A stretch of 64,000 nucleotides of DNA, taken from Eledone cirrhosa (Eukaryota). The stretch spans positions 312,852,001-312,916,000 of the forward strand of contig OZ024743.1 of assembly GCA_964016885.1 (NCBI GenBank). Reading direction: 5' to 3'. Positions 10,481-35,521 of the stretch are shown here, piece after piece (the stretch's first letter is position 1; each line of letters starts with the position of its first letter). The notes beneath the pieces were generated by a model, which worked only from the letters and a program-made list of their open reading frames with translations, did not search any database and was not told the origin of the DNA. The translations under genes and the position numbers were made by a program.

Positions 10481-11473
10481 TTAACTCTTAACATCCTGTA
10501 TTGCATGAAATTATATTAGTAAGGCATTCTTTATAATTACAAGTCTGCACTACAACAGTATCAAGTTAAACTATATTAATAAAACATTATTTGTAAAGTA
10601 TAAAACTGCACGAGAACAGCGTCACATTAACCCTTGAACACTTAAACCGGCCGTATCCAGCCAGAATTCTGTCACCTGTTTTTGTTCAAATCGGTCATCA
10701 TCGGCTGCTTATACTTATGTTAAGGTATTGTTCTCAAAATAAATAATTGTTTATACTTTTGGCACAAGGCCAGCAATTATCCCAGTGGATTACTGGTACT
10801 TTATTTTATCGACCCCGTAAGAATGCAAGGCAAAGTTAACCTCGCCAGGATTTGGACTCAGAACGTAAAGGGGCATAACTCTATGCTGTAAAGCATACTG
10901 TCTGATGCTCTACCGATGCTGCCAATTCACCAGCCTCAATATTATGTGATATAAAGCCTTTACGTTGAAAAGACAATAGTAAATATAGAGTAATGTAAAT
11001 GCTAAAGGGTTAAGCTATATTAGTAAAACACTCTTTGTCAAGTACAAGACTCCACTGTAAATACAAGACACCACAACAGCATCACAACAAACTATATTAG
11101 TAAGACACTCTATGTAAAGTACAAGACTATAACAGCATCATGTTAAACACTGAAGTATTTGCTTTAAAAGTTTTTACTGAGTGTCTGTGTTTGTATTTAT
11201 GTTATGTAACTTAAGAGTTCAACAAAAAGATATCAATAAGATAAATACCAGACTTGAAAAAATGTAATTACAAGGGTCAAATATGATTAACTCTAAGGTG
11301 GTGCCCAAGCATGATTGTAGCATAATGAATGAAAACAGCAAAAGAATAAAATAATAATACTACAAATTTTCATAATGATCTGAGCAATTGTAAAGATGCT
11401 ATAAACATGTGAATGAATAAAACTGATGTTTTAACTATTTTCTATGAAATCATTACAGGATGTTAAGAGTTAA
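10481..11473. mobile_element. TTAA-flanked piggyBac-type MITE containing a nested MITE (10627-11013) that itself contains a SINE (~10745-10940)
   Basis: Outer TIR ttaactcttaacatcctgta / tacaggatgttaagagttaa; inner ttaaccctt / aagggttaa. Confidence 0.75.
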
Positions 11474-11727
11474 AACAGAATAAACATCTGCTGGGCTGCC
11501 TCATTTTCTTTACACCAAATGAAGAAAGATGTGAATTCAAAATAAAGTAATGTCTGTGCAAAGGAGTCTTCTTGACAGGAGGATGAGTTCATAAGTAATT
11601 CTTTTTTTAGAGTGTCTTTATGCATAACAAGATTTCTGTTTCTACCTTAGTATACATATTAACACCATGGTAACTCTTGATGGAGTTGTAGGGTTGCTGT
11701 AATGGCATACAGAGTTTCTTGAACATT

Positions 11728-11961
11728 TTAACCCTTTAGTTACCAACCTAATCAAAACCGGCTCTGGGTCTATGAAATAAAAGACCCATTTTAAAGGTTT
11801 CCCATTTAAATTAAAATCGCCCAACATAATTTTGTATAATTACATTAATTTACTATCTTAGTAATGAAATAATTAATAATTTTAGTAAATCCCTCAAACT
11901 TTTTCATTAATTAATTAAAATTGAGTGTATTTTACTTGAAATGTAGTCATGAAAGGGTTAA
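11728..11961. mobile_element. piggyBac-type MITE
   Basis: TTAA-CCCTTT...AAAGGG-TTAA; homologous to 3173-3391. Confidence 0.75.
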
Positions 11962-14900
11962 GCCTGATGGAGCCCAGTCCCCTCCAAGTGGTTTAAGGCT
12001 ATTTTCTCTGCTAAAGCAAGGGTTAGTTTTGTGGACTCTAATATAGATTTCATACTCATCATGGGGTCCTTTTTGAGACAATGTTTACCAGACAGATGCT
12101 CTTTCTGGCATCAACCATTTTAGGTATCTCTTACGACAGACAGGAATACAGTGTACTTATTCTAAACCACATACATACACACACAGCATATCTATACTGT
12201 ACATGTGAGATAAATCTTGATATCATTGTAAGTGGCTGAAGGTGGTTTTATGAGGGTTGGTATAAAAGAGTTAATATTTGTAAATGATATTGTCCAAGAA
12301 CGACCAAGTCCAAAAACTAATTCATATGCATAAAAGAAATATCTCTAAGTTCTGTAAGTTGTATGTTAATTAAAGTTGATATGCTGGTTACTTGCATTAA
12401 GTTTTATTGCTTAGAACAAGCAGTTCAATATCTAATTAAATGTGCAAATTAGCTAATTATATATTCAAATCTAAAATATGAAAATTAGGCACACTAATTA
12501 TTTAAATGAGTTACATTTCTCAATAAACTTTTTATTCAGTTTACCATATTTGAACAGAACTATATTGTCTGTCAGTAGAAACTTGTTTCAATAAGATATA
12601 CACAAATACTGCAGCTAGTATTTCTTTATGTGTGTGCTATAACCACACGTGTGTATGTATATGCCTGTATATATATATATGTATATTATATATATATATA
12701 TATATATACACATACATACACATTCACATACATATACACTTTGCTTTTTACAGTTCTGTCAGTGAGAGAATGGCCCTTTTCAGAACCTCTAAGACAGGTC
12801 AAAAGAGGGAAGATAACCTCAAACTGGAAACATGGCCACAAATACTTGCAACAGAGTGGACTCCACTAGAAGCACCCAAAAGCCAGGAAGTGACAGTAAA
12901 CAGGCATATATTTCAATACAAGGAATATTTATGGAACAGTAGACTGTGTAAAGTGTAGGAATGTATTTGAGCAAAATGTGGCACTTGGACCATCTGTTAG
13001 AACAGAGGCTCCAATCGAGTACAACTTATGCTAACATGGAAAAGTGGCCATTAAACAATGATGATGATGATGATGATGATAATGATGGTGGTGATGATTA
13101 TGATGATTCCCATAAAAACTTGAACAAAAAAAATGTCATTAAATGCAAATATAATAATCCTGATATATTTGGTTAGGAAGGAAAAGAAAAATGATTTTAC
13201 AATCATAGAGGTCAGCTTCCTTACAGATGTGAACATTTCTTCAATAATCTGAGAGAAAGAGAATATTTAGAGAACTTCTTGGAGACCTACAGCTTCTCTA
13301 TCTAAATGATACAGTTGGTTGTTTTTTTGTTTTTTTGTTTTTTTCATTAGTTTACGTGGTAGATTTGGAAAATGGAGCAGTACTTATTGCCTTCACAAGC
13401 CCTCTGAGACCATAGAAATCAATATTGTTGACATTCTGTTTAGTGGCAAGACTGCTCCTTCAGGAAAGTCATGAGTAGAGAGGAGGCAGGAGTTCCAGAT
13501 GGCTGACATTCTGGACAGAAAAGATGGTCAATAGTGGTTTGTGTGAGGTCAAGGGATGTAGTTTGACACAACATTGGCTCCCCTAACTATCTAAAAGTCA
13601 AAAGTCTGTCTTGACCCTGCAGGCTCATCAGACAGGTTCTTCTCTTGATTTCCGTGGTTTGAAGCAACTAAGAGTACATGCCATCCCCCTGGACAGGATA
13701 CCAGTCCATTACAGGGTTAAACCCCACAGCTATTGCTGGTATTCATTTTCAGCTGAGTATACTGGAGCAATGTGAAATGAAGTGTTTTGCTAAAGAACAC
13801 AACACAGTACAGCAATCAAACCCACAATATTATGATCATAAGTCCAACATCCTTACTACTAGGCCACATGTTTCCACTAACTATATTAGTAGTTATCTAA
13901 GTGGTAATCTTGAATCATTAAGGTTTTCATTCAAAAATAGTGACCAGGTAATACAAACTTTACTAATACAATTTGTAAGAGGAACAGCAAAATTATGAAA
14001 GATTTTTCTAAAATTCAACATGTAACTCTAAAGGAACATTCTTTCTTTAGAGGAGGAATTCAAATATTAAAAAAAAAGTAAAGATAGCATACATATTCAT
14101 ATATATATATATTCATATACCATAATAAATATATACATGTTAAAGGTGCAGATAGATACTGAAATAAAGTAAAATCCAAATAGATGGCCCTCTTCATTTT
14201 GGTTAACTCTCAGAGCCTCTAGATTGTAACACTCAGAATCTTCCAGCAACACTACAAGTTAATTAAAACAAAGAGAGCCCTTTGGATGGATGAATATCAC
14301 CCCATGCCAGCATGGAAAAACAGATATTAAATGATAATTGTTTCTACTTTTTGGCACAAGGCCAGCAATTACCCAGTGCATTACTGGTATGATAATGATG
14401 AATAGTGATTATATATATATATATATTATATCCAAAATTAAATTAAGGGTGTCATGTCTGAGACATGCGCCATATCCACTGTAGAATATGCTTTGAGCAT
14501 ATTCTACAGTGGATATGGCGCATGACACGCTTAATTTAATTTTGGATATATATACGGCCCCTTAATTGTAGAGCTAACTCAGTTGAAAGGACTCAGCTGC
14601 TATTTCTAGCTGTCGATAATCCTATTCACGCCACTGGGATGACGCTGGTACGATGAGTGTATTTTTTTAAAAATGCAACATGTGCAACGGGTCATTCGAA
14701 GATTTGCATTTGCTGTGTAAACACAGATAGTTAAATCTTCTCCCTTGTTGAAAATCCGGGATTTGACTACTGTGATTTACGGATTAATGGTGAAATATAT
14801 TACTTTAATGAAATATATACAAGGAAGATTAATCATTTTAAAAGGTATCTATATTTGAAGTTCTAGTTAAATTTTAATTAGTTACCTACCTAGCTGTGTG

Positions 14901-15307
14901 TGCTTGCACACTTTAAAAATTATCCCCTGTGATTGTTTCATGTGTTTATTTTAGATATATATATATGTCAATCAAATTTTAGTTGATATATATATATATG
15001 TAGAAGTTATATTTAAATTGTTGGGATACAACAAGCAAATATTTTTATAACTGATATAAAGCACTCAACACATTATTGGAGTAAAAATACGATATATTAA
15101 CAAATGGAAACTATATTTATAAAACCATATTTATTTCATTATACATATTTCAAGGACACCAAGTCAAATTATATTTATTTATAAAACTGATCTATATTAT
15201 ATTTTATCTGATGAAAGCGCACCATAATTTGACTTGGTGTCCTTGAAATATGTATGATGAAATAAATTTGGTTTTATAAATATAGTTTCCATTTGTTAAT
15301 ATATCGT

Positions 15308-15399
15308 ATATATATATATATATAATACATATATATATATATATAATACATATATATATATATATATATATATAATACATATATATATATATATATATA

Positions 15400-15433
<34 letters not shown>

Positions 15434-15636
15434 CATATATATATATAATACATATATATATATATAATACATATATATATATAATACATATATATATATA
15501 ATACATATATATATATATAATACATATATATATATATAATACATATATATATATAATACATATATATAATACATATATATAATACATATATATATATAAT
15601 ACATATATATATATAATACATATATATATATAATAC

Positions 15637-15667
<31 letters not shown>

Positions 15668-16261
15668 ATATAATATATATATAATACATATATATATTAT
15701 ATATATAATACATATATATATTATATATATAATACATATATATATTATATATATAATACATATATATATTATATATATAATACATATATATATTATATAT
15801 ATAATACATATATATATTATATATATAATACATATATATATTATATATATAATACATATATATATTATATATATAATACATATATATATTATATATATTA
15901 TATATATAATACATATATATATTATATATATAATACATATATATATTATATATATAATACATATATATATTATATATATAATACATATATATATTATATA
16001 TATAATACATATATATATTATATATATAATACATATATATATTATATATATAATACATATATATATTATATATATAATACATATATATATTATATATATA
16101 ATACATATATATATTATATATATAATACATATATATATTATATATATAATACATATATATATATAATACATATATATATTATATATATAATACATATATA
16201 TATTATATATATAATACATATATATATTATATATATAATACATATATTTATTATATATATA

Positions 16262-16299
<38 letters not shown>

Positions 16300-16320
16300 C
16301 ATATATTTATTATATATATA

Positions 16321-16356
<36 letters not shown>

Positions 16357-16440
16357 CATATATATATAATACATATATATATAATACATATATATATATA
16401 TATATATATAATACATATATATATAATACATATATATATA

Positions 16441-16483
<43 letters not shown>

Positions 16484-16531
16484 AATACATATATATATAA
16501 TACATATATATATATAATACATATATATATA

Positions 16532-16570
<39 letters not shown>

Positions 16571-16586
16571 AATACATATATATATA

Positions 16587-16631
<45 letters not shown>

Positions 16632-16647
16632 AATACATATATATATA

Positions 16648-16690
<43 letters not shown>

Positions 16691-16706
16691 AATACATATA
16701 TATATA

Positions 16707-16753
<47 letters not shown>

Positions 16754-16773
16754 AATACATATATATATAATAC

Positions 16774-16806
<33 letters not shown>

Positions 16807-16858
16807 AATACATATATATATAATACATATATATATATAATACATATATATATAATAC

Positions 16859-16895
<37 letters not shown>

Positions 16896-16917
16896 ATATA
16901 TAATACATATATATATA

Positions 16918-16960
<43 letters not shown>

Positions 16961-16963
16961 ATA

Positions 16964-17006
<43 letters not shown>

Positions 17007-17009
17007 ATA

Positions 17010-17052
<43 letters not shown>

Positions 17053-17055
17053 ATA

Positions 17056-17149
<94 letters not shown>

Positions 17150-17160
17150 ATATATATATT
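15308..17160. repeat. (TA)n-derived compound array with a 24-bp periodic core
   Basis: taatacatatatatattatatata repeated at ~15680-16150 (MYYIYNIY in the ORF track). Confidence 0.97.
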
Positions 17161-17216
17161 TGAGCAGTAGTAGTCTAACCCAATCAAAACATACCATGCT
17201 GGGGCACTGCCATTTG

Positions 17217-17248
<32 letters not shown>

Positions 17249-17307
17249 CAAATGGCAGTGCCCCAGCATGGCAGCAGTTTGTCAAGTGGAAAACATAATA
17301 GAACAAT

Positions 17308-18928
17308 ATCATCATCATCATCATCATCAGCGTTTAACGTCCGTGTTCCACGCTTGCATGGGTTTGGACGGGGGTAGTCCCACTTGAGGCAAGAGTGATT
17401 GTCTTGCTCGCATAGGACTGTCTGGCAGGTTTTCTACAGTTGGATGCCCTTCCTAACACCAACCACATTTACAGTGTGGGTCTGGGAGGTTTTTACCGTG
17501 TTGCCTACACGGCCACATTACAGCGTGGACTGTGTGTTTTTTTGTCGTGACACCTACACGATCTCATTTGTTTCGGCCTCGATGGCGCGGCACCAACATA
17601 ACTTTACATAGAACGGGGTGGTGTGGATCGGGTGGGGGTGGTGGGACGGGGTGTATTTGTTAGAGATGCCTACTGGCTGGAGTAGGTTTTACTATATATT
17701 TAGGTAAGGCGGGTCTTCTCTGTTACTGAGTACCGCCAAAGGTCTCGGTCCAGTGACATTGTCTTGGAGAGGTGTAAGTGTGTGATGTCGGAGTTTATCA
17801 GCTCGTCCCAGGTTTTTCTAGGTCTGCCTATTCCGTGACTACCGTCTATCTTTATTGCCCTGCACTTTGTTATACAGCTATCGACTTTCATGCGCATCAC
17901 GTGTCCATACCAACGTAGCCTTCTCTCGAGTAAACAACATCTGATCCCTCTTATCTCTAATTTATTCCTTAGTTCGTTTATGCTTTGCCGTTCACGTATA
18001 TTACTGTTACACATCCAGCGGAGCATGCAAGCTTCGTTCCTCTCTAGTCTGCGTATATCCTCTGCACACAATGCCCAGGTCTCACTGCCATGCAGCATTG
18101 CTGTTCGTATGCAGGCATCGTACAACCTGCCTTTCATTTTTAGTGAGAACCCTTTAGCAGCTAATAGTGGTATAAGCTCTCTGAACTTTTTCCAACCAGT
18201 TCTGACTCTAGCTACAGTACTTTCAGAGCACCCTCCCCCACTGCTGATTTTATCGCCCAGGTAACGGAAGCTGTCCACTATTTCTATAGAACCCTCTGCG
18301 CAATTGAAAGAGCTAGTAGTTTGTGGGCACTTGCTGCTACTTATTGCACCAGAGCACCGGCCACATGTAAAATCTATGTTCTTAGTTAGCCTACCTGTGA
18401 TCCCACTACATCTTTTATGCACCCATACTTTGCATTTAGGACATAAAATGGAGTTTCTACCTACGCCTTTCCTACACACCGAGCACGACCATTTCCCAGA
18501 AGGGACCGCCGCCTTGTTTTCTTTCCTACAAACTAGTACTTTGGTCTTAGCCAGGTTAATTTTAAGTCCTTTTGACTCTAGGCCGTGCTTCCATGTTTGG
18601 AATTTCTTCTCTAGCTCGGCCATTGATTCCGCTATGAGTGTCAGGTCGTCTGCGTATAGGAGTTCCCATGGGCAGCCTGTCTTGAACTCCTCTGTTATGG
18701 CCTGAAGGGCAATAATAAATAGTAGTGGACTGAGAACAGAGCCCTGATGGACGCCGACTTTTACGCTAAACTCTTCACTATATTCGTTGTTAATTCTAAC
18801 CTTGCTGACTGTTTCTTTATACATGGCTTGTATAGCCCTCACAAGCCATTCGTCAACGCCTAGTTTTCTAAGAGCCCACCAGATAATGGAGCGGGGGACT
18901 CTGTCGAAGGCTTTCTCCAAGTCGACAA

Positions 18929-18929
<1 letters not shown>
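17308..18929 (-). mobile_element. RTE-clade LINE, 5'-truncated, with an uninterrupted 406-aa RT ORF segment (17700-18920)
   Basis: FVDLEKAFDRV, GVHQGSVLSPLLF, LLYADDL, FRYLG, a PHD-like Cys-rich insert and RLRWYGHVMR...GRPRKTW; 3'UTR and (GAT)n tail at 17308-17328. Confidence 0.95.
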
Positions 18930-18986
<57 letters not shown>

Positions 18987-21273
18987 ATATATTTGAGCAG
19001 TAGTAGTCTAACGCAATCAAAACATATCTACATAAGATTAAGGAATCCACAAGTCTAATGAGCTATCAATTCCACAGTCAGGCATGATTGATACAGATTT
19101 TACCTTGAGCAGATCAATTGCAAAATGCAAATCACATGTAAATAAACATAATGATACTATATTGATACTTCATTCTTGTTCCCTATTATTATTTTCCTGC
19201 TGAAACATCTGGATCGTTGACTACAGCTGACAAAGGATTCTTTCTTCTTTTCTCCTCTTGTTCCGTCCAAACCACCATCCTAAACCTTGTTTCTAGTAAC
19301 CACACAGCTCCTTTCGTTTCTTATCAGTTTGTATATATATATATATATGTATATATATTTATTTTGATAGGGTTAGGCTACTATTGCTCACAACTATGGT
19401 CTTAAAAGCCCAGGCATTATCCATCAATTGGAGAGATTGCAAAAACATTCACAAAAAACAAGATGGTGATGGGGGACAGACCTTAACTACTGGGAATGCC
19501 ATTGCACATCATTAGTTATATCAAAGACATAGAAGTCTCCCTTGTGCTGATGCTACATAAAACACACTCAATACAAATTGTAAAGTGGAGAAATGTATAT
19601 AAACAAGATATGGCTCCCAGCCCATCTGAGACATCAGAAGTTTTGATTGAGTAATGACAGTCTATGATGACCCATCCAACCCTTGTTAGAGAAAATAGAC
19701 ATTACATGATAACGTTGTCCCTGCCATTCCCAACCTTAATTTTATAGACCTTAGCATAAACTTAGTTCCTTACTAGTTTCATTACTATTTCCTTACTGTT
19801 CATTACAAAATACCAGATTCCAGAGCCTTAGCCTTGCCATCACCCTCAGTAATGCTGTGAGCATGTTAGCTTGTCTCAAAAAGTTCTGATGACCCTTGTG
19901 GTGTGTGACTGACTGATGCACTTAAGTGTTGAATTGATGTTTTTTTTTTTCCCGCTTTGATTGTATTATATTTATAAGCTTCCTAGCAATAATTAATTGA
20001 TTATATGTATTTATATCTGATATAAATGTAATAAAAATTCTTTATATCTCATATATAACAAGCATTTTAAGGCTATTGATCCTGCTAAAGCAAGGATTAT
20101 CCTTACAGGACTTTATATTCAGCATGAAGTTCTTAAGGCAATTTTTACAGCTGGATGCTCTTCCTGGTGCCACTCCATTTAGTCACCTCTTATAACAAGC
20201 AAGAATAAAGTATACCTATTCTAAACCAGATTTACACGGTCATTGTTAAGTACAATATATATTATGTTTAATGTTTAATCTTTACATGCCACATGTTACG
20301 GCACCTTCTCTAGCAACAACCTGGTGCATTTGGCTACCAGCCCAGGCTTTGTTGCTCATGAGGCCAAAGAGGGCAAACTATCATAGTATTGACTGCTCTC
20401 TGACAGGCTTGTGGTTGAGCCTGAGGCAGCGGAAACTTCCAGCATTCTTAGCCCCTGGACCACATCCCTGCTCACTGCTACCGAAGCAAAGTTGGCTACC
20501 CACAGGTGAAAGCTCCAGCACAACTTCCTCACCATCCTCTGGGACAATGTCTTCTCCATCCAGTGAACCAGGATCACAAGGCTGACTGACCCTTGAACAG
20601 TGAGTGGTATATACAGATCACACACACACACACACACACAGAATAAGTATTTTGTAAGCATAACAAATTATAATGTACATTGACAGTGTGTTAGCTTGTG
20701 AAAGATCAATAATCAGTGACACATGATATATACAATTGTAATCTACTAAACTACACTGGAAATGCTAGAAATACAATAACATTTTTAAAAACTACTACTG
20801 TGTGTATCTGGTTTAGAATAGGTACTCCATATCTCTGAGTAAAGGTATGGAAACTAGTGATTAGAGTGGTGACTAATGATCATAAGTTTCGATGACTTGT
20901 TGCATCTTTGAGCAACCAACAAGCTTATTTAAACAGTTTATTAATCCTTTTCACATCAAACTACCTCTGATTCTACAATATTAAACTGTTAATTTTATGT
21001 AAGAACCTTTAAGTTGTTCCAAACACTAGCTTAATAATGAAAAATAGCATCACTAAATCCCTTCAAATTCTTAATTATTTTTAAATGATTTGAAAATGAT
21101 GGGTAGTAACTTTAACTAAAAATATGGTAACAATTAAGGGAAATAAAAAAAAATTAAAATACCAACGTGAAAAATGAAAAAACAAAATGGAATTGGTCAA
21201 TGACCTCTCTTTGAAATTGCTATAATGCATATATATGTACATAGAAAGAGTGAGAGAGCGAGAGATGTGTGTG

Positions 21274-21319
<46 letters not shown>

Positions 21320-24082
21320 TAACGAAGGAGATGTGGTAAGGAACCAGGTGGACCATAACGCACCAAAGTACTCAATACTTAGGGTAGTAGAGTGGGTAAT
21401 AGGAACGAGTAGGACCCCGACGGCTGAGCTCAAGCCGTTTCGAAACGGCTTGAGCTCAGCCGTCGGGGTCCTACTCGTTCCTATATACATATGTATATAT
21501 ATATATATATACACACATACATATATACATACATATATATATACATATATATACATATATATATATAACATATACATATATATATGTAACTGGCATACTG
21601 TACTGTACTATGGCAGCTGTGCAAATTATTAATTAAAGCATGTTTATAGATTACTTAAATAGCCAAATAAAATTTTAATATAAACTAATCAAAGCAAAAA
21701 CAATTAAAGAAACAACAACAGCAACAACAATAATAATAATAAACAAAAACACTTTAAATCGAAGAAATATCATCCCTGGTGCATTTAGTTAGTTACTTTG
21801 TTTTATTTTATTTCATTTTATTTTATAAAGATCCAATCTCTTGGTTGATAATCACTGAAGCATTGATTAAAAAAATTGATATGCTTCGGAACAACTAAGG
21901 TACCTTGGCTGACTGAATCAGTCACTTAAAGAACTGGTTGTCAGTTTGGTGTCTTGTCAAGCATTAACTGTTCCTAGATCTACTTGCCATAATATTACTA
22001 ATAGGTGAGAAGCATTTATGGAGGCATATACAATATTTTTTATGTATAATAAACATATTGTATATATTTCCATATATACCTCTATTCAGAATCACTTTGT
22101 GTTACTATTACTAATAATTGATACTTATTACTAATAGGTGAGAGGCATACATGGAAGCATATATAATATATTTTCTATGTATAACAAACATATTGTATAT
22201 ATTTCCATATATACATCTATTCAAAATCATTCTGTGTTAGTGCTACTACTAATTAAGCCTGCATTATATGCAAATGAGCATCACCAAAATTGTAATATTT
22301 ACAAAATCAATATACAACCTATTAGCATATTTACCTCAATATCAAGTGATTAAATATTATTCATGATGATGTTTGCATGCATGGTCTCATAACTACCGAT
22401 GAAGCTGTAGGGGTGCCATATTGACTTATAGCAATTCTAGGGCATTTTTTAAAGCTAGCAGAGCCCATCTCCTCTCCAGGTCTGAATACAGCAAATTTCT
22501 TCCAGAGAAGGATAGAGATTGGGAGAAAGGAAGTGAGAAAGAGATATAGTGGAAGAATCAACACCAATACTAGACTGGTACTTTTTTTATTGACCTCGAA
22601 TGGATGAGAGGCAAAGTTGACCTCAACGGGATTTGAATTCAGAGAGCCTAAATGAATATCACAAAGCATTCTATCCAATGTTCTAACAACTCTACCAATT
22701 TGTTGCTTTCATGATGGATAAAGATTCTCAAGTACTAGTATTTGACATTCTCACGTGGTTACTACATTAGCTGTCATCAGCAAGACTTATGAATATTTAT
22801 TATACATAAAAATATTGTACGTTTCCATACACACTTCTCTATTCTGAATCACACTGTTACTGCTACTGGTAATTAATACCTAGTTATAACAACCAGTCAA
22901 ATAAATACAAAATGTTATATAAGAATATACTTCAATAATTCTTAATGTGGTCACATGACATGCTTAACTTTGATAGACTCAAAGACAGAAAATTAAGAAT
23001 TTAGACAATCTAGGATGATATTTTAATTTTATTTTTTCTCTTTTTATAACAATTTGATACCATTTTGACCAAAACTGTCTCTGTTTCTATGAAACAAAAA
23101 GCATCCATTGTAATGGAGTGCTAATTAATTTTGATAATTAGTTAGTGATATTCCTAAATCCGTCAAATTTTTCATTGTTTTCAAAATTAACTGAAACACA
23201 TTGGTAATGTATTCCATGACCATATTTCTAATGGAATACACTTTGTAATTCTGACACATCTGGGACATGATTTTATATGAGAACCGTATTTTAATGAAAT
23301 AATTAATAATTTTAGTAAATCCTTCAAAATTCTGTATCAAATAATTGAAATAGAGTGTATGTCATTAGAAATATGGTGATGAAGGAGTTAATGCTTTTGT
23401 TACAATATTTCTAATGAAATACACAGCCATCATTATCATCATCGTTTTAGTGTCGGGCTGGTCAGGTCTAGCAGGGAAAGCAGATGTTAAATGTATTTCA
23501 ATTATGCTACAATATTTTTAATGAAATATAATGCTGATGTGTTTCAATTATTTTTGAAAATAATGAAGAATTTGGAGGCATTTTAGTATTACATAAAGTT
23601 ATGTAGGAATGTATTAATTTAAATATGAACACTTTAAAATGAACAACTTTATATTGTAGAACTAGTGACAATTTTATCCAAGTTGGTATTAAAAGAGTTG
23701 AATAAATTATGTAGAAAAGTTTCTGTTTTTATTATAACAATGACAAAAAGAAAGAGAACTACAGGATAAGAAAGAAAAAAGAGGTTGAGAGGGGTAAATT
23801 TCACAGCCTTGGCTGGACAGCATATCTTAGTTGTGATCCACACTCAATATGGTAAAAGCATTGCTGTAGAGAAAAGTCACATGGCTCGTTCCTCAGATAT
23901 GATGCACTTGTCCCGAGTTGGTGGGACCAAGAACATCAAAGGTAAATTTGTTTGAAAAAAATTTGATTTAATTTATGAAACAAATTTGAAGCAAACAACA
24001 ACAACAACAACAATAGCAACAGCCACAACAAATAACGTGCAGAATTACATCTAATCCATTTGCATTTGACCATAAAACTTAC

Positions 24083-24136
24083 AGTGACGTTTTGACCACT
24101 GAGATCTTTGACTTCCTTGCCACTCACAGGTACGGG
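24083..24136 (-). CDS. RIM: Candidate alternative RIM cassette exon (PVP, 9 nt; or PVPVSGKEVKDLSGQNVT, 54 nt)
   Basis: Pyrimidine tract tttttttctcattgattctgtcag| at 24137, then donors |gtgagt after 9 nt (24127) and |gtaagt after 54 nt (24082). Both forms are phase 0-0 and stop-free. Confidence 0.6.
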
Positions 24137-25274
24137 CTGACAGAATCAATGAGAAAAAAATACAAAGTGATGAAAATAATGAAGATTAGGTCAAAAAGAG
24201 CAAGGAAACAAAACAAAATAAGTCTGTCATTCACTTATGAGTGAGTTTCAATGTATACATGTATTTCCTTTATAACGTATCCACAAGGATTCCACAGAAT
24301 GTTCTCCTTCTCTCTATAATATCTCTGAATAATGAATAAAGAATAATAAAATAATATACTGCCACATGTTTTTCTATGAAAATACAGTGTGACTTATCTA
24401 CTGCTCCTACAATTCCTGAATTCAAAATATACATGATATATTGTAAATATTGTGTAAAATGAAGGTTGACATATTTACTGGACCTACAAATGCTGAATTC
24501 AAAATATACATGATGCATTGCAAATATCACATGTTAAATGGAAATGTGATTTATCTACTGGACCTACAAAATCTCAATTCCAAATATATGAGTCTTTGTA
24601 AATGTTGAATATAAAATGACAATGAGTGTAGGCAACAATTATAAAGGGTGAGTCATAGGTAAATGGGCAGTCCAACGTTTATATTCCAAATGATAATATT
24701 TACTAAAATTCTGGTCATACATTACGAAATTATAAATTCATCAAACAAATATAACCATGGCTGATCACACATAAATAAGTGGATGTTCAAAAAGCTATCT
24801 GTGAACCTTTCAATAAATATCTATTGACAACTCAGTTACTTATGACTCACTTCCCTGTAGTTTCTCTATTCCTTAGTTTGAAGATGGAGAATTGTTTCAA
24901 AAATGAATAGATTAAAGATCAAGTTAATGTGATAATGTTCAGTAAAGTTTGTTGCAAATTAATGTTTGAGAAAAAAAAACCATAAGCAGAAAGAGATTGA
25001 GAGGGTACAGTTAAACCAAATATTCTTTCTGTTGACACCCAACAAAAAGAATACTTGGTTTAACTGTCCCGTCTTATTCTCTTTCTGCTTATGATTTTTT
25101 TTCATTACAAAGGAAAAGAGCCATTCATTAGTCCGGACCAAGGAAATTATCTTTCCAATGGTCTTTCCATTGTTGGCACTTAATATCAGTCACAATTAGT
25201 AGGAGGTGGGATTTAAACTCAGAATAAACAAAACTGGATAAGATACTAAAAAGCATCCAGTTCAACTTTTTAAC

Positions 25275-28200
25275 AATTCTGCCAATCCACTACCACTACC
25301 GGGCTGGAACATTATCAACCCTGATTCTGCCAATCCACTACCACTACTGGGCTGGTACTTTATCAACCCTGATTCTGCCAATCCACTACCACTACTGGGC
25401 TGCTACTTTATCAACCCTGATTCTGCCAATCCACTACCACTACTGGGCTGCTACTTTATCAACCCTGATTCTGCCAATCCACTACCACTACTGGGCTGGT
25501 ACTTTATCAACCTTGATTCTGCCAATCCACTACCACTACTGGGCTGGTACTTTATCAACCCTGATTCTGCCAATCCACTACCACTACTGGGCTGGTACTT
25601 TATCAACCTTGATTCTGCCAATCCACTACCACTACTGGGCTGCTACTTTATCAACCCTGATTCTGCCAATCCACTACCACTACTAGGCTGGTACTTTATC
25701 AACCTTGATTCTGCCAATCCACTACCACTACTAGGCTGCTACTTTATCAACCCTGATTCTGCCAATCCACTACCACTACTGGGCTGCTACTTTATCAACC
25801 CTGATTCTGCCAATCCACTACCACTACTGGGCTGGTACTTTATCAACCCTGATTCTGCCAATCCACTACCACTACTAGGCTGCTACTTTATCAACCCTGA
25901 TTCTGCCAATCCACTACCACTAGTGGGCTGCTACTTTATCAACCCTGATTCTGCCAATCCACTACCACTACTAGGCTGCTACTTTATCAACCCTGATTCT
26001 GCCAATCCACTACCACTAGTGGGCTGCTACTTTATCAACCCTGATTCTGCCAATCCACTACCACTACTGGGCTGCTACTTTATCAACCCTGATTCTGCCA
26101 ATCCACTACCACTACTGGGCTGGTACTTTATCAACCTTGATTCTGCCAATCCACTACCACTACTGGGCTGGTACTTTATCAACCCTGATTCTGCCAATCC
26201 ACTACCACTACTAGGCTGCTACTTTATCAACCCTGATTCTGCCAATCCACTACCACTACTAGGCTGCTACTTTATCAACCTTGATTCTGCCAATCCACTA
26301 CCACTACTAGGCTGCTACTTTATCAACCCTGATTCTGCCAATCCACTACCACTACTAGGCTGCTACTTTATCAACCTTGATTCTGCCAATCCACTACCAC
26401 TACTAGGCTGCTACTTTATCAACCTTGATTCTGCCAATCCACTACCACTACTGGGCTGGTACTTTATCAACCCTGATTCTGCCAATCCACTACCACTACT
26501 AGGCTGCTACTTTATCAACCCTGATTCTGCCAATCCACTACCACTACTAGGCTGCTACTTTATCAACCTTGATTCTGCCAATCTACTACCACTACTAGGC
26601 TGCTACTTTATCAACCCTGATTCTGCCAATCCACTACCACTACTAGGCTGCTACTTTATCAACCCTGATTCTGCCAATCCACTACCACTACTAGGCTGCT
26701 ACTTTATCAACCTTGATTCTGCCAATCCACTACCACTACTAGGCTGCTACTTTATCAACCCTGATTCTGCCAATCCACTACCACTACTGGGCTGCTACTT
26801 TATCAACCCTGATTCTGCCAATCCACTACCACTACTGGGCTGGTACTTTATCAACCCTGATTCTGCCAATCCACTACCACTAGTGGGCTGCTACTTTATC
26901 AACCCTGATTCTGCCAATCCACTACCACTACTGGGCTGGTACTTTATCAACCCTGATTCTGCCAATCCACTACCACTACTAGGCTGCTACTTTATCAACC
27001 CTGATTCTGCCAATCCACTACCACTAGTGGGCTGCTACTTTATCAACCCTGATTCTGCCAATCCACTACCACTACTAGGCTGCTACTTTATCAACCCTGA
27101 TTCTGCCAATCCACTACCACTAGTGGGCTGCTACTTTATCAACCCTGATTCTGCCAATCCACTACCACTACTGGGCTGCTACTTTATCAACCCTGATTCT
27201 GCCAATCCACTACCACTACTGGGCTGGTACTTTATCAACCTTGATTCTGCCAATCCACTACCACTACTGGGCTGGTACTTTATCAACCCTGATTCTGCCA
27301 ATCCACTACCACTACTAGGCTGCTACTTTATCAACCCTGATTCTGCCAATCCACTACCACTACTAGGCTGCTACTTTATCAACCTTGATTCTGCCAATCC
27401 ACTACCACTACTAGGCTGCTACTTTATCAACCCTGATTCTGCCAATCCACTACCACTACTAGGCTGCTACTTTATCAACCTTGATTCTGCCAATCCACTA
27501 CCACTACTAGGCTGCTACTTTATCAACCTTGATTCTGCCAATCCACTACCACTACTGGGCTGGTACTTTATCAACCCTGATTCTGCCAATCCACTACCAC
27601 TACTAGGCTGCTACTTTATCAACCCTGATTCTGCCAATCCACTACCACTACTAGGCTGCTACTTTATCAACCCTGATTCTGCCAATCCACTACCACTACT
27701 GGGCTGGTACTTTATCAACCTTGATTCTGCCAATCCACTACCACTACTGGGCTGGTACTTTATCAACCCTGATTCTGCCAATCCACTACCACTACTAGGC
27801 TGCTACTTTATCAACCCTGATTCTGCCAATCCACTACCACTACTAGGCTGCTACTTTATCAACCCTGATTCTGCCAATCCACTACCACTACTGGGCTGGT
27901 ACTTTATCAACCTTGATTCTGCCAATCCACTACCACTACTGGGCTGGTACTTTATCAACCCTGATTCTGCCAATCCACTACCACTACTAGGCTGCTACTT
28001 TATCAACCCTGATTCTGCCAATCCACTACCACTACTAGGCTGCTACTTTATCAACCCTGATTCTGCCAATCCACTACCACTACTGGGCTGCTACTTTATC
28101 AACCTTGATTCTGCCAATCCACTACCACTAGTGGGATGGTACTTTATCAACCTTGATTCTGCCAATCCACTACCACTACTGGGCTGCTACTTTATCAACC

Positions 28201-31200
28201 CTGATTCTGCCAATCCACTACCACTAGTGGGCTGCTACTTTATCAACCCTGATTCTGCCAATCCACTACCACTAGTGGGCTGCTACTTTATCAACCTTGA
28301 TTCTGCCAATCCACTACCACTACTGGGCTGCTACTTTATCAACCTTGATTCTGCCAATCCACTACCACTACTAGGCTGCTACTTTATCAACCCTGATTCT
28401 GCCAATCCACTACCACTACTGGGCTGCTACTTTATCAACCTTGATTCTGCCAATCCACTACCACTACTAGGCTGCTACTTTATCAACCCTGATTCTGCCA
28501 ATCCACTACCACTACTAGGCTGCTACTTTATCAACCTTGATTCTGCCAATCCACTACCACTACTGGGCTGCTACTTTATCAACCTTGATTCTGCCAATCC
28601 ACTACCACTACTAGGCTGCTACTTTATCAACCCTGATTCTGCCAATCCACTACCACTACTAGGCTGCTACTTTATCAACCTTGATTCTGCCAATCCACTA
28701 CCACTACTAGGCTGCTACTTTATCAACCCTGATTCTGCCAATCCACTACCACTACTAGGCTGCTACTTTATCAACCCTGATTCTGCCAATCCACTACCAC
28801 TACTAGGCTGCTACTTTATCAACCTTGATTCTGCCAATCCACTACCACTACTAGGCTGCTACTTTATCAACCCTGATTCTGCCAATCCACTACCACTACT
28901 GGGCTGCTACTTTATCAACCCTGATTCTGCCAATCCACTACCACTACTGGGCTGGTACTTTATCAACCCTGATTCTGCCAATCCACTACCACTACTGGGC
29001 TGCTACTTTATCAACCCTGATTCTGCCAATCCACTACCACTACTGGGCTGCTACTTTATCAACCTTGATTCTGCCAATCCACTACCACTACTAGGCTGCT
29101 ACTTTATCAACCCTGATTCTGCCAATCCACTACCACTACTGGGCTGGTACTTTATCAACCTTGATTCTGCCAATCCACTACCACTACTGGGCTGCTACTT
29201 TATCAACCCTGATTCTGCCAATCCACTACCACTACTGGGCTGGTACTTTATCAACCTTGATTCTGCCAATCCACTACCACTACTGGGCTGCTACTTTATC
29301 AACCCTGATTCTGCCAATCCACTACCACTACTGGGCTGCTACTTTATCAACCCTGATTCTGCCAATCCACTACCACTACTGGGCTGGTACTTTATCAACC
29401 CTGATTCTGCCAATCCACTACCACTACTGGGCTGCTACTTTATCAACCTTGATTCTGCCAATCCACTACCACTAGTGGGCTGCTACTTTATCAACCCTGA
29501 TTCTGCCAATCCACTACCACTACTGGGCTGGTACTTTATCAACCTTGATTCTGCCAATCCACTACCACTAGTGGGCTGCTACTTTATCAACCCTGATTCT
29601 GCCAATCCACTACCACTACTGGGCTGGTACTTTATCAACCTTGATTCTGCCAATCCACTACCACTACTGGGCTGCTACTTTATCAACCTTGATTCTGCCA
29701 ATCCACTACCACTAGTGGGCTGCTACTTTATCAACCCTGATTCTGCCAATCCACTACCACTACTGGGCTGGTACTTTATCAACCTTGATTCTGCCAATCC
29801 ACTACCACTAGTGGGCTGCTACTTTATCAACCCTGATTCTGCCAATCCACTACCACTACTAGGCTGCTACTTTATCAACCCTGATTCTGCCAATCCACTA
29901 CCACTACTAGGCTGCTACTTTATCAACCTTGATTCTGCCAATCCACTACCACTAGTGGGCTGCTACTTTATCAACCCTGATTCTGCCAATCCACTACCAC
30001 TAGTGGGCTGGTACTTTATCAACCTTGATTCTGCCAATCCACTACCACTAGTGGGCTGCTACTTTATCAACCTTGATTCTGCCAATCCACTACCACTAGT
30101 GGGCTGCTACTTTATCAACCCTGATTCTGCCAATCCACTACCACTACTGGGCTGCTACTTTATCAACCCTGATTCTGCCAATCCACTACCACTACTGGGC
30201 TGCTACTTTATCAACCTTGATTCTGCCAATCCACTACCACTACTAGGCTGCTACTTTATCAACCTTGATTCTGCCAATCCACTACCACTACTAGGCTGCT
30301 ACTTTATCAACCCTGATTCTGCCAATCCACTACCACTAGTGGGCTGCTACTTTATCAACCCTGATTCTGCCAATCCACTACCACTAGTGGGCTGCTACTT
30401 TATCAACCTTGATTCTGCCAATCCACTACCACTACTGGGCTGGTACTTTATCAACCTTGATTCTGCCAATCCACTACCACTACTGGGCTGCTACTTTATC
30501 AACCTTGATTCTGCCAATCCACTACCACTACTAGGCTGCTACTTTATCAACCCTGATTCTGCCAATCCACTACCACTACTAGGCTGCTACTTTATCAACC
30601 TTGATTCTGCCAATCCACTACCACTAGTGGGCTGCTACTTTATCAACCCTGATTCTGCCAATCCACTACCACTACTAGGCTGCTACTTTATCAACCTTGA
30701 TTCTGCCAATCCACTACCACTAGTGGGCTGCTACTTTATCAACCTTGATTCTGCCAATCCACTACCACTAGTGGGCTGGTACTTTATCAACCTTGATTCT
30801 GCCAATCCACTACCACTACTAGGCTGCTACTTTATCAACCTTGATTCTGCCAATCCACTACCACTACTAGGCTGCTACTTTATCAACCTTGATTCTGCCA
30901 ATCCACTACCACTACTAGGCTGCTACTTTATCAACCTTGATTCTGCCAATCCACTACCACTACTAGGCTGCTACTTTATCAACCTTGATTCTGTCAATCC
31001 ACTACCACTAGTGGGCTGCTACTTTATCAACCCTGATTCTGCCAATCCACTACCACTACTAGGCTGCTACTTTATCAACCTTGATTCTGCCAATCCACTA
31101 CCACTAGTGGGCTGCTACTTTATCAACCTTGATTCTGCCAATCCACTACCACTACTAGGCTGCTACTTTATCAACCTTGATTCTGCCAATCCACTACCAC

Positions 31201-34200
31201 TAGTGGGCTGCTACTTTATCAACCTTGATTCTGCCAATCCACTACCACTAGTGGGCTGCTACTTTATCAACCCTGATTCTGCCAATCCACTACCACTACT
31301 AGGCTGCTACTTTATCAACCTTGATTCTGCCAATCCACTACCACTACTGGGCTGGTACTTTATCAACCCTGATTCTGCCAATCCACTACCACTACTGGGC
31401 TGGTACTTTATCAACCTTGATTCTGCCAATCCACTACCACTACTAGGCTGCTACTTTATCAACCCTGATTCTGCCAATCCACTACCACTACTGGGCTGGT
31501 ACTTTATCAACCTTGATTCTGCCAATCCACTACCACTACTGGGCTGGTACTTTATCAACCCTGATTCTGCCAATCCACTACCACTACTGGGCTGGTACTT
31601 TATCAACCCTGATTCTGCCAATCCACTACCACTACTGGGCTGGTACTTTATCAACCTTGATTCTGCCAATCCACTACCACTACTAGGCTGCTACTTTATC
31701 AACCCTGATTCTGCCAATCCACTACCACTACTGGGCTGGTACTTTATCAACCTTGATTCTGCCAATCCACTACCACTACTGGGCTGGTACTTTATCAACC
31801 CTGATTCTGCCAATCCACTACCACTACTGGGCTGGAACATTATCAACCTTGATTCTGCCAATCCACTACCACTACTGGGCTGGTACTTTATCAACCCTGA
31901 TTCTGCCAATCCACTACCACTACTGGGCTGGTACTTTATCAACCCTGATTCTGCCAATCCACTACCACTACTGGGCTGGAACATTATCAACCTTGATTCT
32001 GCCAATCCACTACCACTACTGGGCTGGTACTTTATCAACCCTGATTCTGCCAATCCACTACCACTACTGGGCTGGTACTTTATCAACCCTGATTCTGCCA
32101 ATCCACTACCACTACTGGGCTGGTACTTTATCAACCTTGATTCTGCCAATCCACTACCACTACTGGGCTGGTACTTTATCAACCCTGATTCTGCCAATCC
32201 ACTACCACTACTGGGCTGGTACTTTATCAACCCTGATTCTGCCAATCCACTACCACTACTGGGCTGGTACTTTATCAACCTTGATTCTGCCAATCCACTA
32301 CCACTACTGGGCTGGTACTTTATCAACCCTGATTCTGCCAATCCACTACCACTACTGGGCTGGTACTTTATCAACCCTGATTCTGCCAATCCACTACCAC
32401 TACTAGGCTGGTACTTTATCAACCCTGATTCTGCCAATCCACTACCACTACTGGGCTGGTACTTTATCAACCCTGATTCTGCCAATCCACTACCACTACT
32501 AGGCTGCTACTTTATCAACCTTGATTCTGCCAATCCACTACCACTACTAGGCTGCTACTTTATCAACCCTGATTCTGCCAATCCACTACCACTACTGGGC
32601 TGGTACTTTATCAACCCTGATTCTGCCAATCCACTACCACTACTAGGCTGCTACTTTATCAACCCTGATTCTGCCAATCCACTACCACTACTAGGCTGGT
32701 ACTTTATCAACCCTGATTCTGCCAATCCACTACCACTACTGGGCTGGTACTTTATCAACCTTGATTCTGCCAATCCACTACCACTACTGGGCTGCTACTT
32801 TATCAACCTTGATTCTGCCAATCCACTACCACTACTGGGCTGGTACTTTATCAACCCTGATTCTGCCAATCCACTACCACTACTGGGCTGGTACTTTATC
32901 AACCTTGATTCTGCCAATCCACTATCACTACCTAACTGGTACTTTATCAACCCTGATTCTGCCAATCCACTACCACTAGTGGGCTGGTACTTTATCAACC
33001 TTGATTCTGCCAATCCACTATCACTACCTAACTGGTACTTTATCAACCCTGATTCTGCCAATCCACTACCACTACTGGGCTGGTACTTTATCAACCTTGA
33101 TTCTGCCAATCCACTACCACTAGTGGGCTGCTACTTTATCAACCTTGATTCTGCCAATCCACTATCACTACCTAACTGGTACTTTATCAACCTTGATTCT
33201 GCCAATCCACTACCACTACTGGGCTGGTACTTTATCAACCCTGATTCTGCCAATCCACTACCACTACTGGGCTGGTACTTTATCAACCTTGATTCTGCCA
33301 ATCCACTATCACTACCTAACTGGTACTTTATCAACCCTGATTCTGCCAATCCACTACCACTACTGGGCTGCTACTTTATCAACCTTGATTCTGCCAATCC
33401 ACTACCACTAGTGGGCTGCTACTTTATCAACCTTGATTCTGCCAATCCACTACCACTACTGGGCTGGTACTTTATCAACCTTGATTCTGCCAATCCACTA
33501 CCACTAGTGGGCTGGTACTTTATCAACCTTGATTCTGCCAATCCACTACCACTACTGGGCTGGTACTTTATCAACCTTGATTCTGCCAATCCACTACCAC
33601 TACTAGGCTGCTACTTTATCAACCTTGATTCTGCCAATCCACTACCACTAGTGGGCTGCTACTTTATCAACCCTGATTCTGCCAATCCACTACCACTACT
33701 GGGCTGCTACTTTATCAACCCTGATTCTGCCAATCCACTACCACTACTGGGCTGCTACTTTATCAACCCTGATTCTGCCAATCCACTACCACTACTGGGC
33801 TGGTACTTTATCAACCTTGATTCTGCCAATCCACTACCACTACTAGGCTGCTACTTTATCAACCCTGATTCTGCCAATCCACTACCACTACTGGGCTGGT
33901 ACTTTATCAACCTTGATTCTGCCAATCCACTACCACTACTGGGCTGCTACTTTATCAACCTTGATTCTGCCAATCCACTACCACTACTGGGCTGCTACTT
34001 TATCAACCTTGATTCTGCCAATCCACTACCACTAGTGGGCTGGTACTTTATCAACCTTGATTCTGCCAATCCACTACCACTACTAGGCTGCTACTTTATC
34101 AACCTTGATTCTGCCAATCCACTACCACTACTAGGCTGCTACTTTATCAACCTTGATTCTGCCAATCCACTACCACTACTAGGCTGCTACTTTATCAACC

Positions 34201-35165
34201 TTGATTCTGCCAATCCACTACCACTACTGGGCTGGTACTTTATCAACCTTGATTCTGCCAATCCACTACCACTACTAGGCTGCTACTTTATCAACCTTGA
34301 TTCTGCCAATCCACTACCACTACTGGGCTGGTACTTTATCAACCTTGATTCTGCCAATCCACTACCACTACTGGGCTGGTACTTTATCAACCTTGATTCT
34401 GCCAATCCACTACCACTACTAGGCTGCTACTTTATCAACCCTGATTCTGCCAATCCACTACCACTACTGGGCTGCTACTTTATCAACCTTGATTCTGCCA
34501 ATCCACTACCACTAGTGGGCTGGTACTTTATCAACCTTGATTCTGCCAATCCACTATCACTACCTAACTGGTACTTTATCAACCCTGATTCTGCCAATCC
34601 ACTACCACTAGTGGGCTGGTACTTTATCAACCTTGATTCTGCCAATCCACTATCACTACCTAACTGGTACTTTATCAACCCTGATTCTGCCAATCCACTA
34701 CCACTAGTGGGCTGGTACTTTATCAACCTTGATTCTGCCAATCCACTATCACTACCTAACTGGTACTTTATCAACCCTGATTCTGCCAATCCACTACCAC
34801 TACCACTGGACTGGTACTTTATTTATCAACCCTGATTCTGCCAATCCACCACCACCACTACTGGGCTGGTACTTTATCAACCCTGATTCTGCCAATCCAC
34901 CACCATCACCACCACCCCTAGACTGGTATATTTATCAACCCTGATTCTGCCAATCCATCACCACCACCTCTGGGCTGGTACTTTATTTATTGACCTTGAT
35001 TCTGCCAATTCACCACCACCACCCCTCAAATGGTACTTTATTTATTAACCCTGATTCTGCCAATTCACCACCCCTCAAATGGTATTTTATTTATTAATCC
35101 TGATTCTGCCAATCCACCACCACCACCACCAATACTGGACTGGTACCTTATTTATCAACCCTGAA
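25275..35165. repeat. 48-bp tandem satellite, about 200 copies, SINE-derived
   Basis: Unit gattctgccaatccactaccacta(c/g)t(g/a)ggctg(g/c)tactttatcaacc(c/t)t; indel-free to ~34800, then several diverged units merging into a SINE body. Confidence 0.98.
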
Positions 35166-35313
35166 AGCAAAGTTGACTTCAGCAGAATTCGAACTCTGAG
35201 CACAGAGTGTCAAAACAAATACTATAAAGCATTCTTTCCAACACTCTTAATGACTCCATTAATTTTCTACCTTTATTTAAAAGAGTTGTAAATAAGTTAA
35301 TATTTTTAAATAC

Positions 35314-35521
35314 CTTATTCCCACGCATTGTAATTCTGCCACCACATCTGGCACATGATTTTAGGTGACAGTAGTGACAACTATGTCCAACACCATCAGC
35401 AAATTTTGTTTTATGGCATATTTGGCAGACAGCACCTTCATCTTGTGGAGTTACTTGTTTGGTTTCTTCACTTAATTTTTTTACTGCTTGTTGGTAGCTA
35501 TCAAATTCATCTTGCATTTGT
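35314..35521 (-). CDS. RIM: RIM (Rab3-interacting molecule) exon: end of Rab-binding helix and first part of the FYVE-type zinc finger
   Basis: Acceptor ttttcag|A at 35522/35521 and donor AAG|gtattt at 35314/35313. Encodes QMQDEFDSYQQAVKKLSEETKQVTPQDEGAVCQICHKTKFADGVGHSCHYCHLKSCARCGGRITMRGNK; CxICHKTKFADGxGHxCxYCxxKxCARCGGR is the RIM/UNC-10 zinc-finger signature. Confidence 0.93.

What the first reader, a model, noticed from the sequence alone, without database searches (positions are those of the whole stretch)
24083..24136. Dual-donor microexon (9 nt / 54 nt) inside the RIM zinc finger, at the position of a vertebrate RIM splice insert
Seen: a strong acceptor (T-rich tract + tcag) followed by two canonical donors, GTGAGT after CCC GTA CCT and GTAAGT after 54 nt. 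Both are phase 0-0 and stop-free, in the middle of a 25-kb intron. Inclusion would give RGNK-PVP-VIWSC or RGNK-PVPVSGKEVKDLSGQNVT-VIWSC. Known: vertebrate RIM1/2 have a short alternatively spliced insert (EDKV-type) between RSN and VMWVCNLC, and this finger binds Munc13. Inference: a conserved or convergent neural microexon giving three variants of this loop, which gene predictors would easily miss.
Basis: partly seen in the sequence, partly recalled or inferred. Interest (0 to 1): 0.75.

Follow-up and report, generated by a model that had tools for sequence, protein, structure and literature searches.

The report
Optional loop exon in octopus RIM
A real 54-base optional exon, already annotated in related octopuses, adds 18 amino acids to a predicted loop of the synapse protein RIM and likely tunes its grip on UNC-13, at a spot where other animal groups carry unrelated inserts; the proposed 9-base version was not seen.

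Summary
The 54-nt exon (minus strand, 24136-24083) is real. Spliced contigs include it in 4 of 6 RNA-like runs, one identical to this window over 525 nt; one run holds the skip junction. It is not missed by annotation: Octopus bimaculoides, O. sinensis, O. vulgaris and Argonauta models carry it, and O. bimaculoides isoform X5 skips it. The peptide is 18/18 identical in cuttlefish-like proteins. At 54 nt it is no microexon. The 9-nt form is unsupported: 0 of 22 cephalopod proteins, 0 of 4 runs able to show it, and Argonauta's V-T cannot spell that donor; contigs drop rare forms, so it is not excluded (0.15). The insert sits at the predicted tip of the beta3-beta4 hairpin, beside the crevice that holds Munc13's helix in rat. 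Abalone, scallop, oysters, mussel and a nemertean have optional, dissimilar inserts at the same residue; vertebrates have EDKV there. Best reading: a recurrently used splice hotspot that likely tunes RIM/UNC-13 binding; function and neural specificity are untested. The scan noted the same exon before in another genome, with the same verdict.

The parts
35314..35521 (-). Upstream RIM exon: end of helix a1 and first three CxxC pairs of the zinc finger, ends ...RGNK, donor GTATTT
10025..35313 (-). 25,289-nt phase-0 GT-AG intron that hosts the optional exon
24137..24223 (-). Acceptor region: 87-nt AG-free zone, long pyrimidine tract, branch-point-like CTAAT at 24189-24185, acceptor TCAG; nearest TGC is 66 nt upstream
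   Evidence: branch point is a motif match only
24083..24136 (-). 54-nt cassette exon, 18 residues PVPVSGKEVKDLSGQNVT
   Evidence: spliced contigs; annotated proteins with and without it
24122..24127 (-). Inner donor-like GTGAGT (Val-Ser codons); would give a 9-nt exon 24136-24128; use not seen
24077..24082 (-). Used donor GTAAGT of the 54-nt exon
24063..24179 (.). 117-nt island (exon plus splice signals) that alone aligns in an unspliced 651-nt contig of a related organism
   Evidence: run X23, record 16: 7 other letters, 1 gap
9297..10024 (-). Downstream RIM exon: VIWSC, last CxxC pair, helix a2, GAWY motif and linker

Best explanation
The 54 bases at 24136-24083 are a spliced, optional exon of the octopus RIM gene that adds 18 residues at the predicted tip of the zinc finger's last beta-hairpin and likely tunes, rather than blocks, RIM's grip on UNC-13, while the inner 9-base donor is likely an unused look-alike. 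Shown: the exon is spliced in on both sides, is skipped in some transcripts of related octopuses, and is conserved in peptide and as a DNA island. Predicted: the finger folds normally and the insert loops out between strands beta3 and beta4. Inferred: the loop lies next to the crevice that holds Munc13's C-terminal helix in the rat structure, cephalopod UNC-13 keeps that helix, so inclusion would shift affinity or the RIM/UNC-13/Rab3 hand-over and with it vesicle priming. Inferred: the same old phase-0 intron has gained unrelated optional exons several times in animals because this loop tolerates insertions.
For: Junctions: runs X19, X1, X13 join 10024 to the 3' end of the 54-nt exon (30 of 30 loose letters equal window 24083-24112); X5 holds a 60-nt skip contig at depth 2; X15 shows both junctions and X19's same 2,700-nt contig covers 24079-24138. 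Proteins: 19 of 22 cephalopod sequences include it, 1 skips, 2 read into the intron; O. bimaculoides X1 and X5 differ by 18 residues. Conservation: 18/18 in proteins 99% like Sepia pharaonis RIMS2, where the linker after the finger is 81% identical; DNA island. Structure: strands 105-111 and 131-137 flank the insert, pLDDT 64-68 in the loop against 85-93 either side; best PDB matches 2A20 and 2CJS; Lu 2006 places Munc13's helix in the crevice of this hairpin. UNC-13 C2A exons are in this genome, cephalopod UNC-13 keeps the helix, and snail UNC-13 matches 2CJS chain A to residue 165. Complex of insert-bearing finger with O. bimaculoides UNC-13: weak support, score 0.34, best control 0.02, run agreement at least 56%, partner pLDDT at least 62; the mark was reached by 51 of 78 solved and 2 of 108 mismatched pairs, but at 0.60 or under by only 5 of the 78 and by all 4 passing mismatches; a like complex is solved, so it may be from memory. 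Hotspot: same-species include/skip pairs in 6 other spiralian species.
Against: No binding or physiology data for either form. The main UNC-13 contact (K97/K99/R118 in rat) is on the far side of the finger, so the effect could be small. The skip form was seen only in relatives, not in the run that matches this window. Inclusion dominates, so the skip form may be minor or non-neural; tissues are hidden. Many gastropods seem to lengthen the loop constitutively from the upstream exon and the lepidopteran and lancelet models have no insert (one unnamed insect-like protein with a longer loop looks like intron read-through), which fits mere tolerance. The inner GTGAGT is not trivial: about 1% per 54-nt exon, about 10% given Val-Ser, and no change is listed at it in X15 or X23.
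Confidence: 0.55

Rival explanations
1. Dual-donor exon: the inner GTGAGT is used and gives a regulated third isoform with only PVP inserted.
For: In frame, canonical, pairs with the U1 consensus about as well as the outer donor; two of only three GTRAGT in 25 kb; chance about 1% per 54-nt exon; GTG was 0 of 14 Val codons in the flanking exons. Long AG-free zone and CTAAT fit small-exon architecture. Abalone shows three loop lengths, 0/+15/+29.
Against: 0 of 22 cephalopod proteins and 0 of 395 proteins in all; 0 of 4 runs, including X13, whose contigs keep small bubbles elsewhere in the exon yet cross this junction unbroken; Argonauta encodes V-T, which cannot be GTGAGT; no TGC near the acceptor.
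Confidence: 0.15
2. The insert does not act on UNC-13 but is a docking site of its own (a short linear motif or modification site) for another active-zone protein.
For: 18/18 identity between octopus and cuttlefish-like proteins, 16/18 in Argonauta; exposed low-confidence loop; inserts of other groups are rich in P, K, V, S, T.
Against: No motif is shared among lineages (1 of 12 comparisons p=0.027, not significant after correction); no partner identified.
Confidence: 0.22
3. The insert is a tolerated spacer with no distinct function; skipping is splicing noise and conservation reflects the generally frozen N-terminus of cephalopod RIM.
For: The first 200 residues differ at only 2 positions between octopus and cuttlefish-like RIM; loop length varies freely among animals; 1 listed change in 54 nt in X15 and X23 is not clearly below the 5-6% of the downstream exon in other relatives.
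Against: A free spacer should drift like the linker (81%); include/skip pairs recur in six other species.
Confidence: 0.08
4. On origin only (overlaps the others): one ancestral alternative exon existed here in the bilaterian ancestor, was kept in spiralians and deuterostomes with rapid sequence turnover, and was lost in insects, many nematodes and lancelets.
For: Inserts at exactly the same residue in molluscs, a nemertean, an annelid, a starfish, hemichordates, tunicates and vertebrates; many start with Pro or Lys.
Against: Lengths run from 4 to 29 residues with no detectable similarity, while within cephalopods and within vertebrates the insert is nearly invariant, which argues against steady turnover; recurrent gain in the same region is reported as common.
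Confidence: 0.3

Closest known systems
Annotated cephalopod RIM isoforms (O. bimaculoides XP_052821978.1 X1 with, XP_052821982.1 X5 without; O. sinensis XP_036356910.1; O. vulgaris CAI9719396.1; Argonauta GAB1600238.1)
   Same: Same exon, same 18 residues (2 changes in Argonauta), same flanking exons; include and skip forms both annotated.
   Different: None carries the 3-residue form; these are gene models, with no functional study found.
Vertebrate RIM1/RIM2 EDKV insert
   Same: Same residue between RSN[K/N] and V[M/I]W; forms with (Megalops RIM2, Fukomys RIM1, lamprey) and without (Tetraodon, Oncorhynchus, PDB 2A20) were retrieved.
   Different: 4 residues against 18, no similarity; with/without pairs here are from different species, so alternative splicing of EDKV within one species rests on recall. 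Which Rims2 exon is SRRM4-regulated in mouse was not visible; the zebrafish rims2b neural microexon listed is 27 nt.
Type I convergent neural exons (bioRxiv 10.64898/2026.09.05.749416; spg/DOCK3-4, syd/SPAG9)
   Same: Different short in-frame exons in the same protein region of orthologous neural genes; that study includes O. bimaculoides.
   Different: RIM is not named in its main text (supplements closed); neural-specific inclusion not shown here.
SRRM3/4 (eMIC)-dependent neural microexons
   Same: Long AG-free zone, long pyrimidine tract, CUAAY branch motif, frame-preserving, surface loop next to an interaction site.
   Different: 54 nt exceeds 27 nt; no UGC close to the acceptor; dependence untested.

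Membership tests
RIM-I / alpha-RIM | Rab-effector helix plus two-zinc finger with the KTKF basic loop | tested here: met
   PDB 2A20 E=7.5e-16; fold matches 2A20 and 2CJS
RIM-I / alpha-RIM | PDZ and two C2 domains in the same gene | tested here: met
   22 exon matches to O. bimaculoides RIM, collinear over about 296 kb of C4; Pfam domains of the orthologue
Cassette (alternative) exon | Spliced to both neighbours through AG and GT | tested here: met
Cassette (alternative) exon | Skip form exists | tested here: met
   run X5 and XP_052821982.1; both from relatives, not from the run matching this window
Exon with alternative 5' splice sites (9/54 nt) | Transcripts use the inner donor | tested here: not met
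   0 of 4 runs, 0 of 22 proteins; low sensitivity for rare forms
Exon with alternative 5' splice sites (9/54 nt) | Inner donor conserved in relatives | tested here: inconclusive
   no listed change in X15, X23 (5 of 7 X23 changes unlisted); cannot be GTGAGT in Argonauta
Microexon | Length 3-27 nt | tested here: not met
   used form is 54 nt; definition
SRRM3/4 (eMIC)-dependent exon | Long AG exclusion zone, pyrimidine tract, CUAAY branch motif | tested here: met
   87 nt; 16 of 21 pyrimidines; CTAAT at -53; features
SRRM3/4 (eMIC)-dependent exon | UGC close to the 3' splice site | tested here: not met
   only TGC in 100 nt is at -66
SRRM3/4 (eMIC)-dependent exon | Neural-specific inclusion lost without the factor | not testable with these tools
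   run tissues are hidden and contigs give no inclusion level
Orthologue of the vertebrate EDKV exon | Same position in the protein and same host intron | tested here: met
   same residue; intron position only indirectly, from proteins that read into the intron after RSN[K/N]
Orthologue of the vertebrate EDKV exon | Sequence or length similarity | tested here: not met
   shuffle p about 0.88
Type I convergent neural exon | Non-homologous exons in the same protein region in several lineages | tested here: inconclusive
   dissimilar inserts at one residue; short low-complexity peptides cannot prove separate origin

The most novel reading that the evidence does not exclude
The beta3-beta4 loop of the RIM zinc finger is a splicing dial that animals have reinvented many times: cephalopods, abalones, bivalves, nemerteans, echinoderms, hemichordates and chordates each gained their own optional exon in one ancient intron to set RIM/UNC-13 affinity and so vesicle priming by neuron type, and cephalopods use a nested donor to give the dial three settings (0, 3, 18 residues).
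Probability: 0.1. Interest if true: 0.65.

Novelty: new member of a known kind. Interest (0 to 1): 0.32.

Why it matters
RIM binding to UNC-13/Munc13 sets vesicle priming and release probability. An optional loop beside that interface, frozen across octopus and cuttlefish lineages and paralleled by unrelated inserts in other phyla, is a concrete, testable case of splicing control of a core release step and of recurrent exon evolution. The exon itself is already in public gene models, so the new part is the comparative pattern and the structural placement, not the exon.

Tried and rejected
No RNA holder is on record in the run search; kinds are guesses. Run X6 laid nothing on the exon, which is no proof of absence. 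A third protein search for short cephalopod fragments gave 6 proteins, none cephalopod-like, so Nautilus and squid remain unsampled by name; 4 of 19 and 14 of 29 members of the two cephalopod clusters were not listed. Pseudo-exon or chance site: rejected. Paralogue or pseudogene: rejected, single collinear locus. Repeat origin of the exon: the 251-nt stretch has one match in the genome (that search skips very common words). Homology of the octopus insert to other inserts: not detected. Eight paper searches showed no paper on this insert or on a cross-phylum pattern; the EDKV search returned unrelated papers; most subscription papers are not held, two wanted papers were not held, one supplement file was unsearchable and preprint supplements are closed, so the exon may be listed in exon tables I could not see.

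Full report
Setting. The window lies on contig C4 of a 3.0-Gb genome. The minus strand carries part of one RIM gene: O. bimaculoides RIM isoform X1 finds 22 collinear exon matches over about 296 kb of C4 at 84-98% identity. The upstream exon (35521-35314) matches octopus RIM at 100% and the RIM2 zinc finger 2A20 at E=7.5e-16. The organism is therefore an octopod (inference).

Observation. All features are as described: acceptor TCAG at 24137, donors GTGAGT after 9 nt and GTAAGT after 54 nt, phase 0, no stop. The host intron is 25,289 nt. It holds only three sense-strand GTRAGT hexamers, two of them here; in the non-repeat part 3 were seen against 6 antisense and a shuffle mean of 6.6. 24136 is the only pyrimidine-rich acceptor with an in-frame donor, and 3 of 200 shuffles gave one (criteria set after seeing the site). 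The acceptor has an 87-nt AG-free zone and CTAAT at -53.

The 54-nt exon is used. On the downstream exon, contigs of X19 (0 differences in 525 nt), X1 and X13 continue from 10024 straight into the 3' end of the 54-nt exon; X5 has a 60-nt contig of depth 2 that joins 10024 to the upstream exon, the skip form. On the cassette, X15 shows both junctions and X19's 2,700-nt contig covers 24079-24138; X6 laid nothing. So 4 of 6 RNA-like runs, from four coded studies, include it and 1 shows skipping. X19 may belong to the project that made the assembly, and run kinds are guesses, but the contigs are spliced. An unspliced contig of X23 aligns only over 24063-24179 of its 651 nt, an island around the exon.

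It is already annotated. Of 22 fetched cephalopod proteins with MRGNK, 19 include the 18 residues, 1 skips them (O. bimaculoides X5) and 2 read into the intron (many are isoforms of one gene, and 18 cluster members were not listed). O. sinensis, O. vulgaris and Argonauta models carry it. Unnamed proteins 99% identical to Sepia pharaonis RIMS2 and 89% to octopus carry it 18/18, while the linker after the finger is 81% identical. The octopod-decapod split at roughly 270 million years is recalled, not from a call.

The 9-nt form. For: in frame, canonical, chance about 1% per 54-nt exon or about 10% given Val-Ser, from codon counts of two exons only; no listed change at it in X15 or X23, with 5 of 7 X23 differences unlisted. 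Against: 0 of 395 proteins, 0 of 4 runs in which it could show, and V-T in Argonauta. X13 keeps small bubbles elsewhere but crosses this junction unbroken. I put real regulated use at 0.15.

Where the insert sits. AlphaFold2 on an insert-bearing N-terminus (26-row alignment) gives strands at 105-111 and 131-137 with the insert (115-132) between them, pLDDT 64-68 there against 85-93 around; top matches are 2A20 and 2CJS. Lu et al. [quoted passage not shown] It appears to be in molluscs: snail UNC-13 matches 2CJS chain A to residue 165, O. bimaculoides and Argonauta UNC-13 have the same helix, and this genome has the C2A exons. A complex prediction with the insert gave weak support (0.34, best control 0.02; runs agree in at least 56% of contacts, partner pLDDT at least 62; mark reached by 51 of 78 solved and 2 of 108 mismatched pairs, at 0.60 or under by only 5 of the 78 and by all 4 passing mismatches; a like complex is solved, so possibly from memory; alignments unused; no skip-form comparison). 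It says at most that inclusion need not block binding.

Other animals. Same-species models with and without an insert at this residue: Haliotis asinina (0, +15, +29), Argopecten (+11), Crassostrea virginica and Magallana gigas (+15), Mytilus galloprovincialis (+19), Lineus (+21) (gene models, reads not seen). Longer loops without a same-species skip form: Owenia, Acanthaster, two hemichordates, two tunicates (NERM), Trichinella, Romanomermis. EDKV is in Megalops RIM2, Fukomys RIM1 and lamprey, absent in the Tetraodon and Oncorhynchus sequences. Against generality: 60 of 77 parsable loops among 141 new representatives are short, the named lepidopteran and lancelet models have none, and several gastropods appear to extend the upstream exon instead. 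28 of 44 proteins that leave the family after the third CxxC do so at a Val right after the loop (my count), as expected for a GT intron at the same place; their taxa are unnamed. The octopus insert resembles none of 12 others after correction (best p=0.027).

Literature. bioRxiv 10.64898/2026.09.05.749416 (passages and section 10) describes recurrent neural exons in the same protein region as common, includes O. bimaculoides, and does not name RIM in the main text. PMC4387716 (passages; supplements searched except file 6) lists Rims2 among genes with SRRM4-regulated microexons without showing which exon. PMC12626424 (passages, supplements) defines microexons as 3-27 nt and lists a 27-nt rims2b exon. 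bioRxiv 2021.02.24.432780 (passages) gives the eMIC features used above. PMC10169678, PMC9282427, PMC7456537 and PMC7273530 (passages) showed nothing on this loop in the passages seen. Older papers on vertebrate RIM splice variants are recalled only. Eight searches showed no paper on the cephalopod insert.

Verdict. A real, conserved, already annotated 54-nt cassette exon; not a microexon; the 9-nt form unsupported; likely one case of repeated exon gain in a permissive loop next to the UNC-13 interface. Function is inferred. Interest 0.32.

Noticed in passing
window 25276-34905: Tandem array of about 200 copies of a 48-bp unit, 95% alike, filling 9.6 kb of the RIM intron 1.1 kb from the cassette exon; it explains the strong GC skew.
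   Followed up: no
window 24113-24138: The X19 contig, otherwise identical to the window, has one unlisted different letter over the cassette, not in the 30 letters seen; allele or RNA editing, position unknown.
   Followed up: no
protein P0527 (O. bimaculoides Unc13, UVH70864.1), residues about 134-156; gene at G000 C20:11359380-11973077: A 23-residue Trp/Glu-rich repeat lies between C2A and the RIM-binding helix, absent from the Argonauta and snail sequences; Patella has 4 extra residues there. The partner's linker may vary by splicing too.
   Followed up: partly
   Followed up: partly
window 24382-24600: Two diverged copies of a short dispersed repeat just upstream of the cassette; many unrelated contigs match it.
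   Followed up: no
window 15307-17159: 1.85-kb TA microsatellite in the same intron.
   Followed up: no
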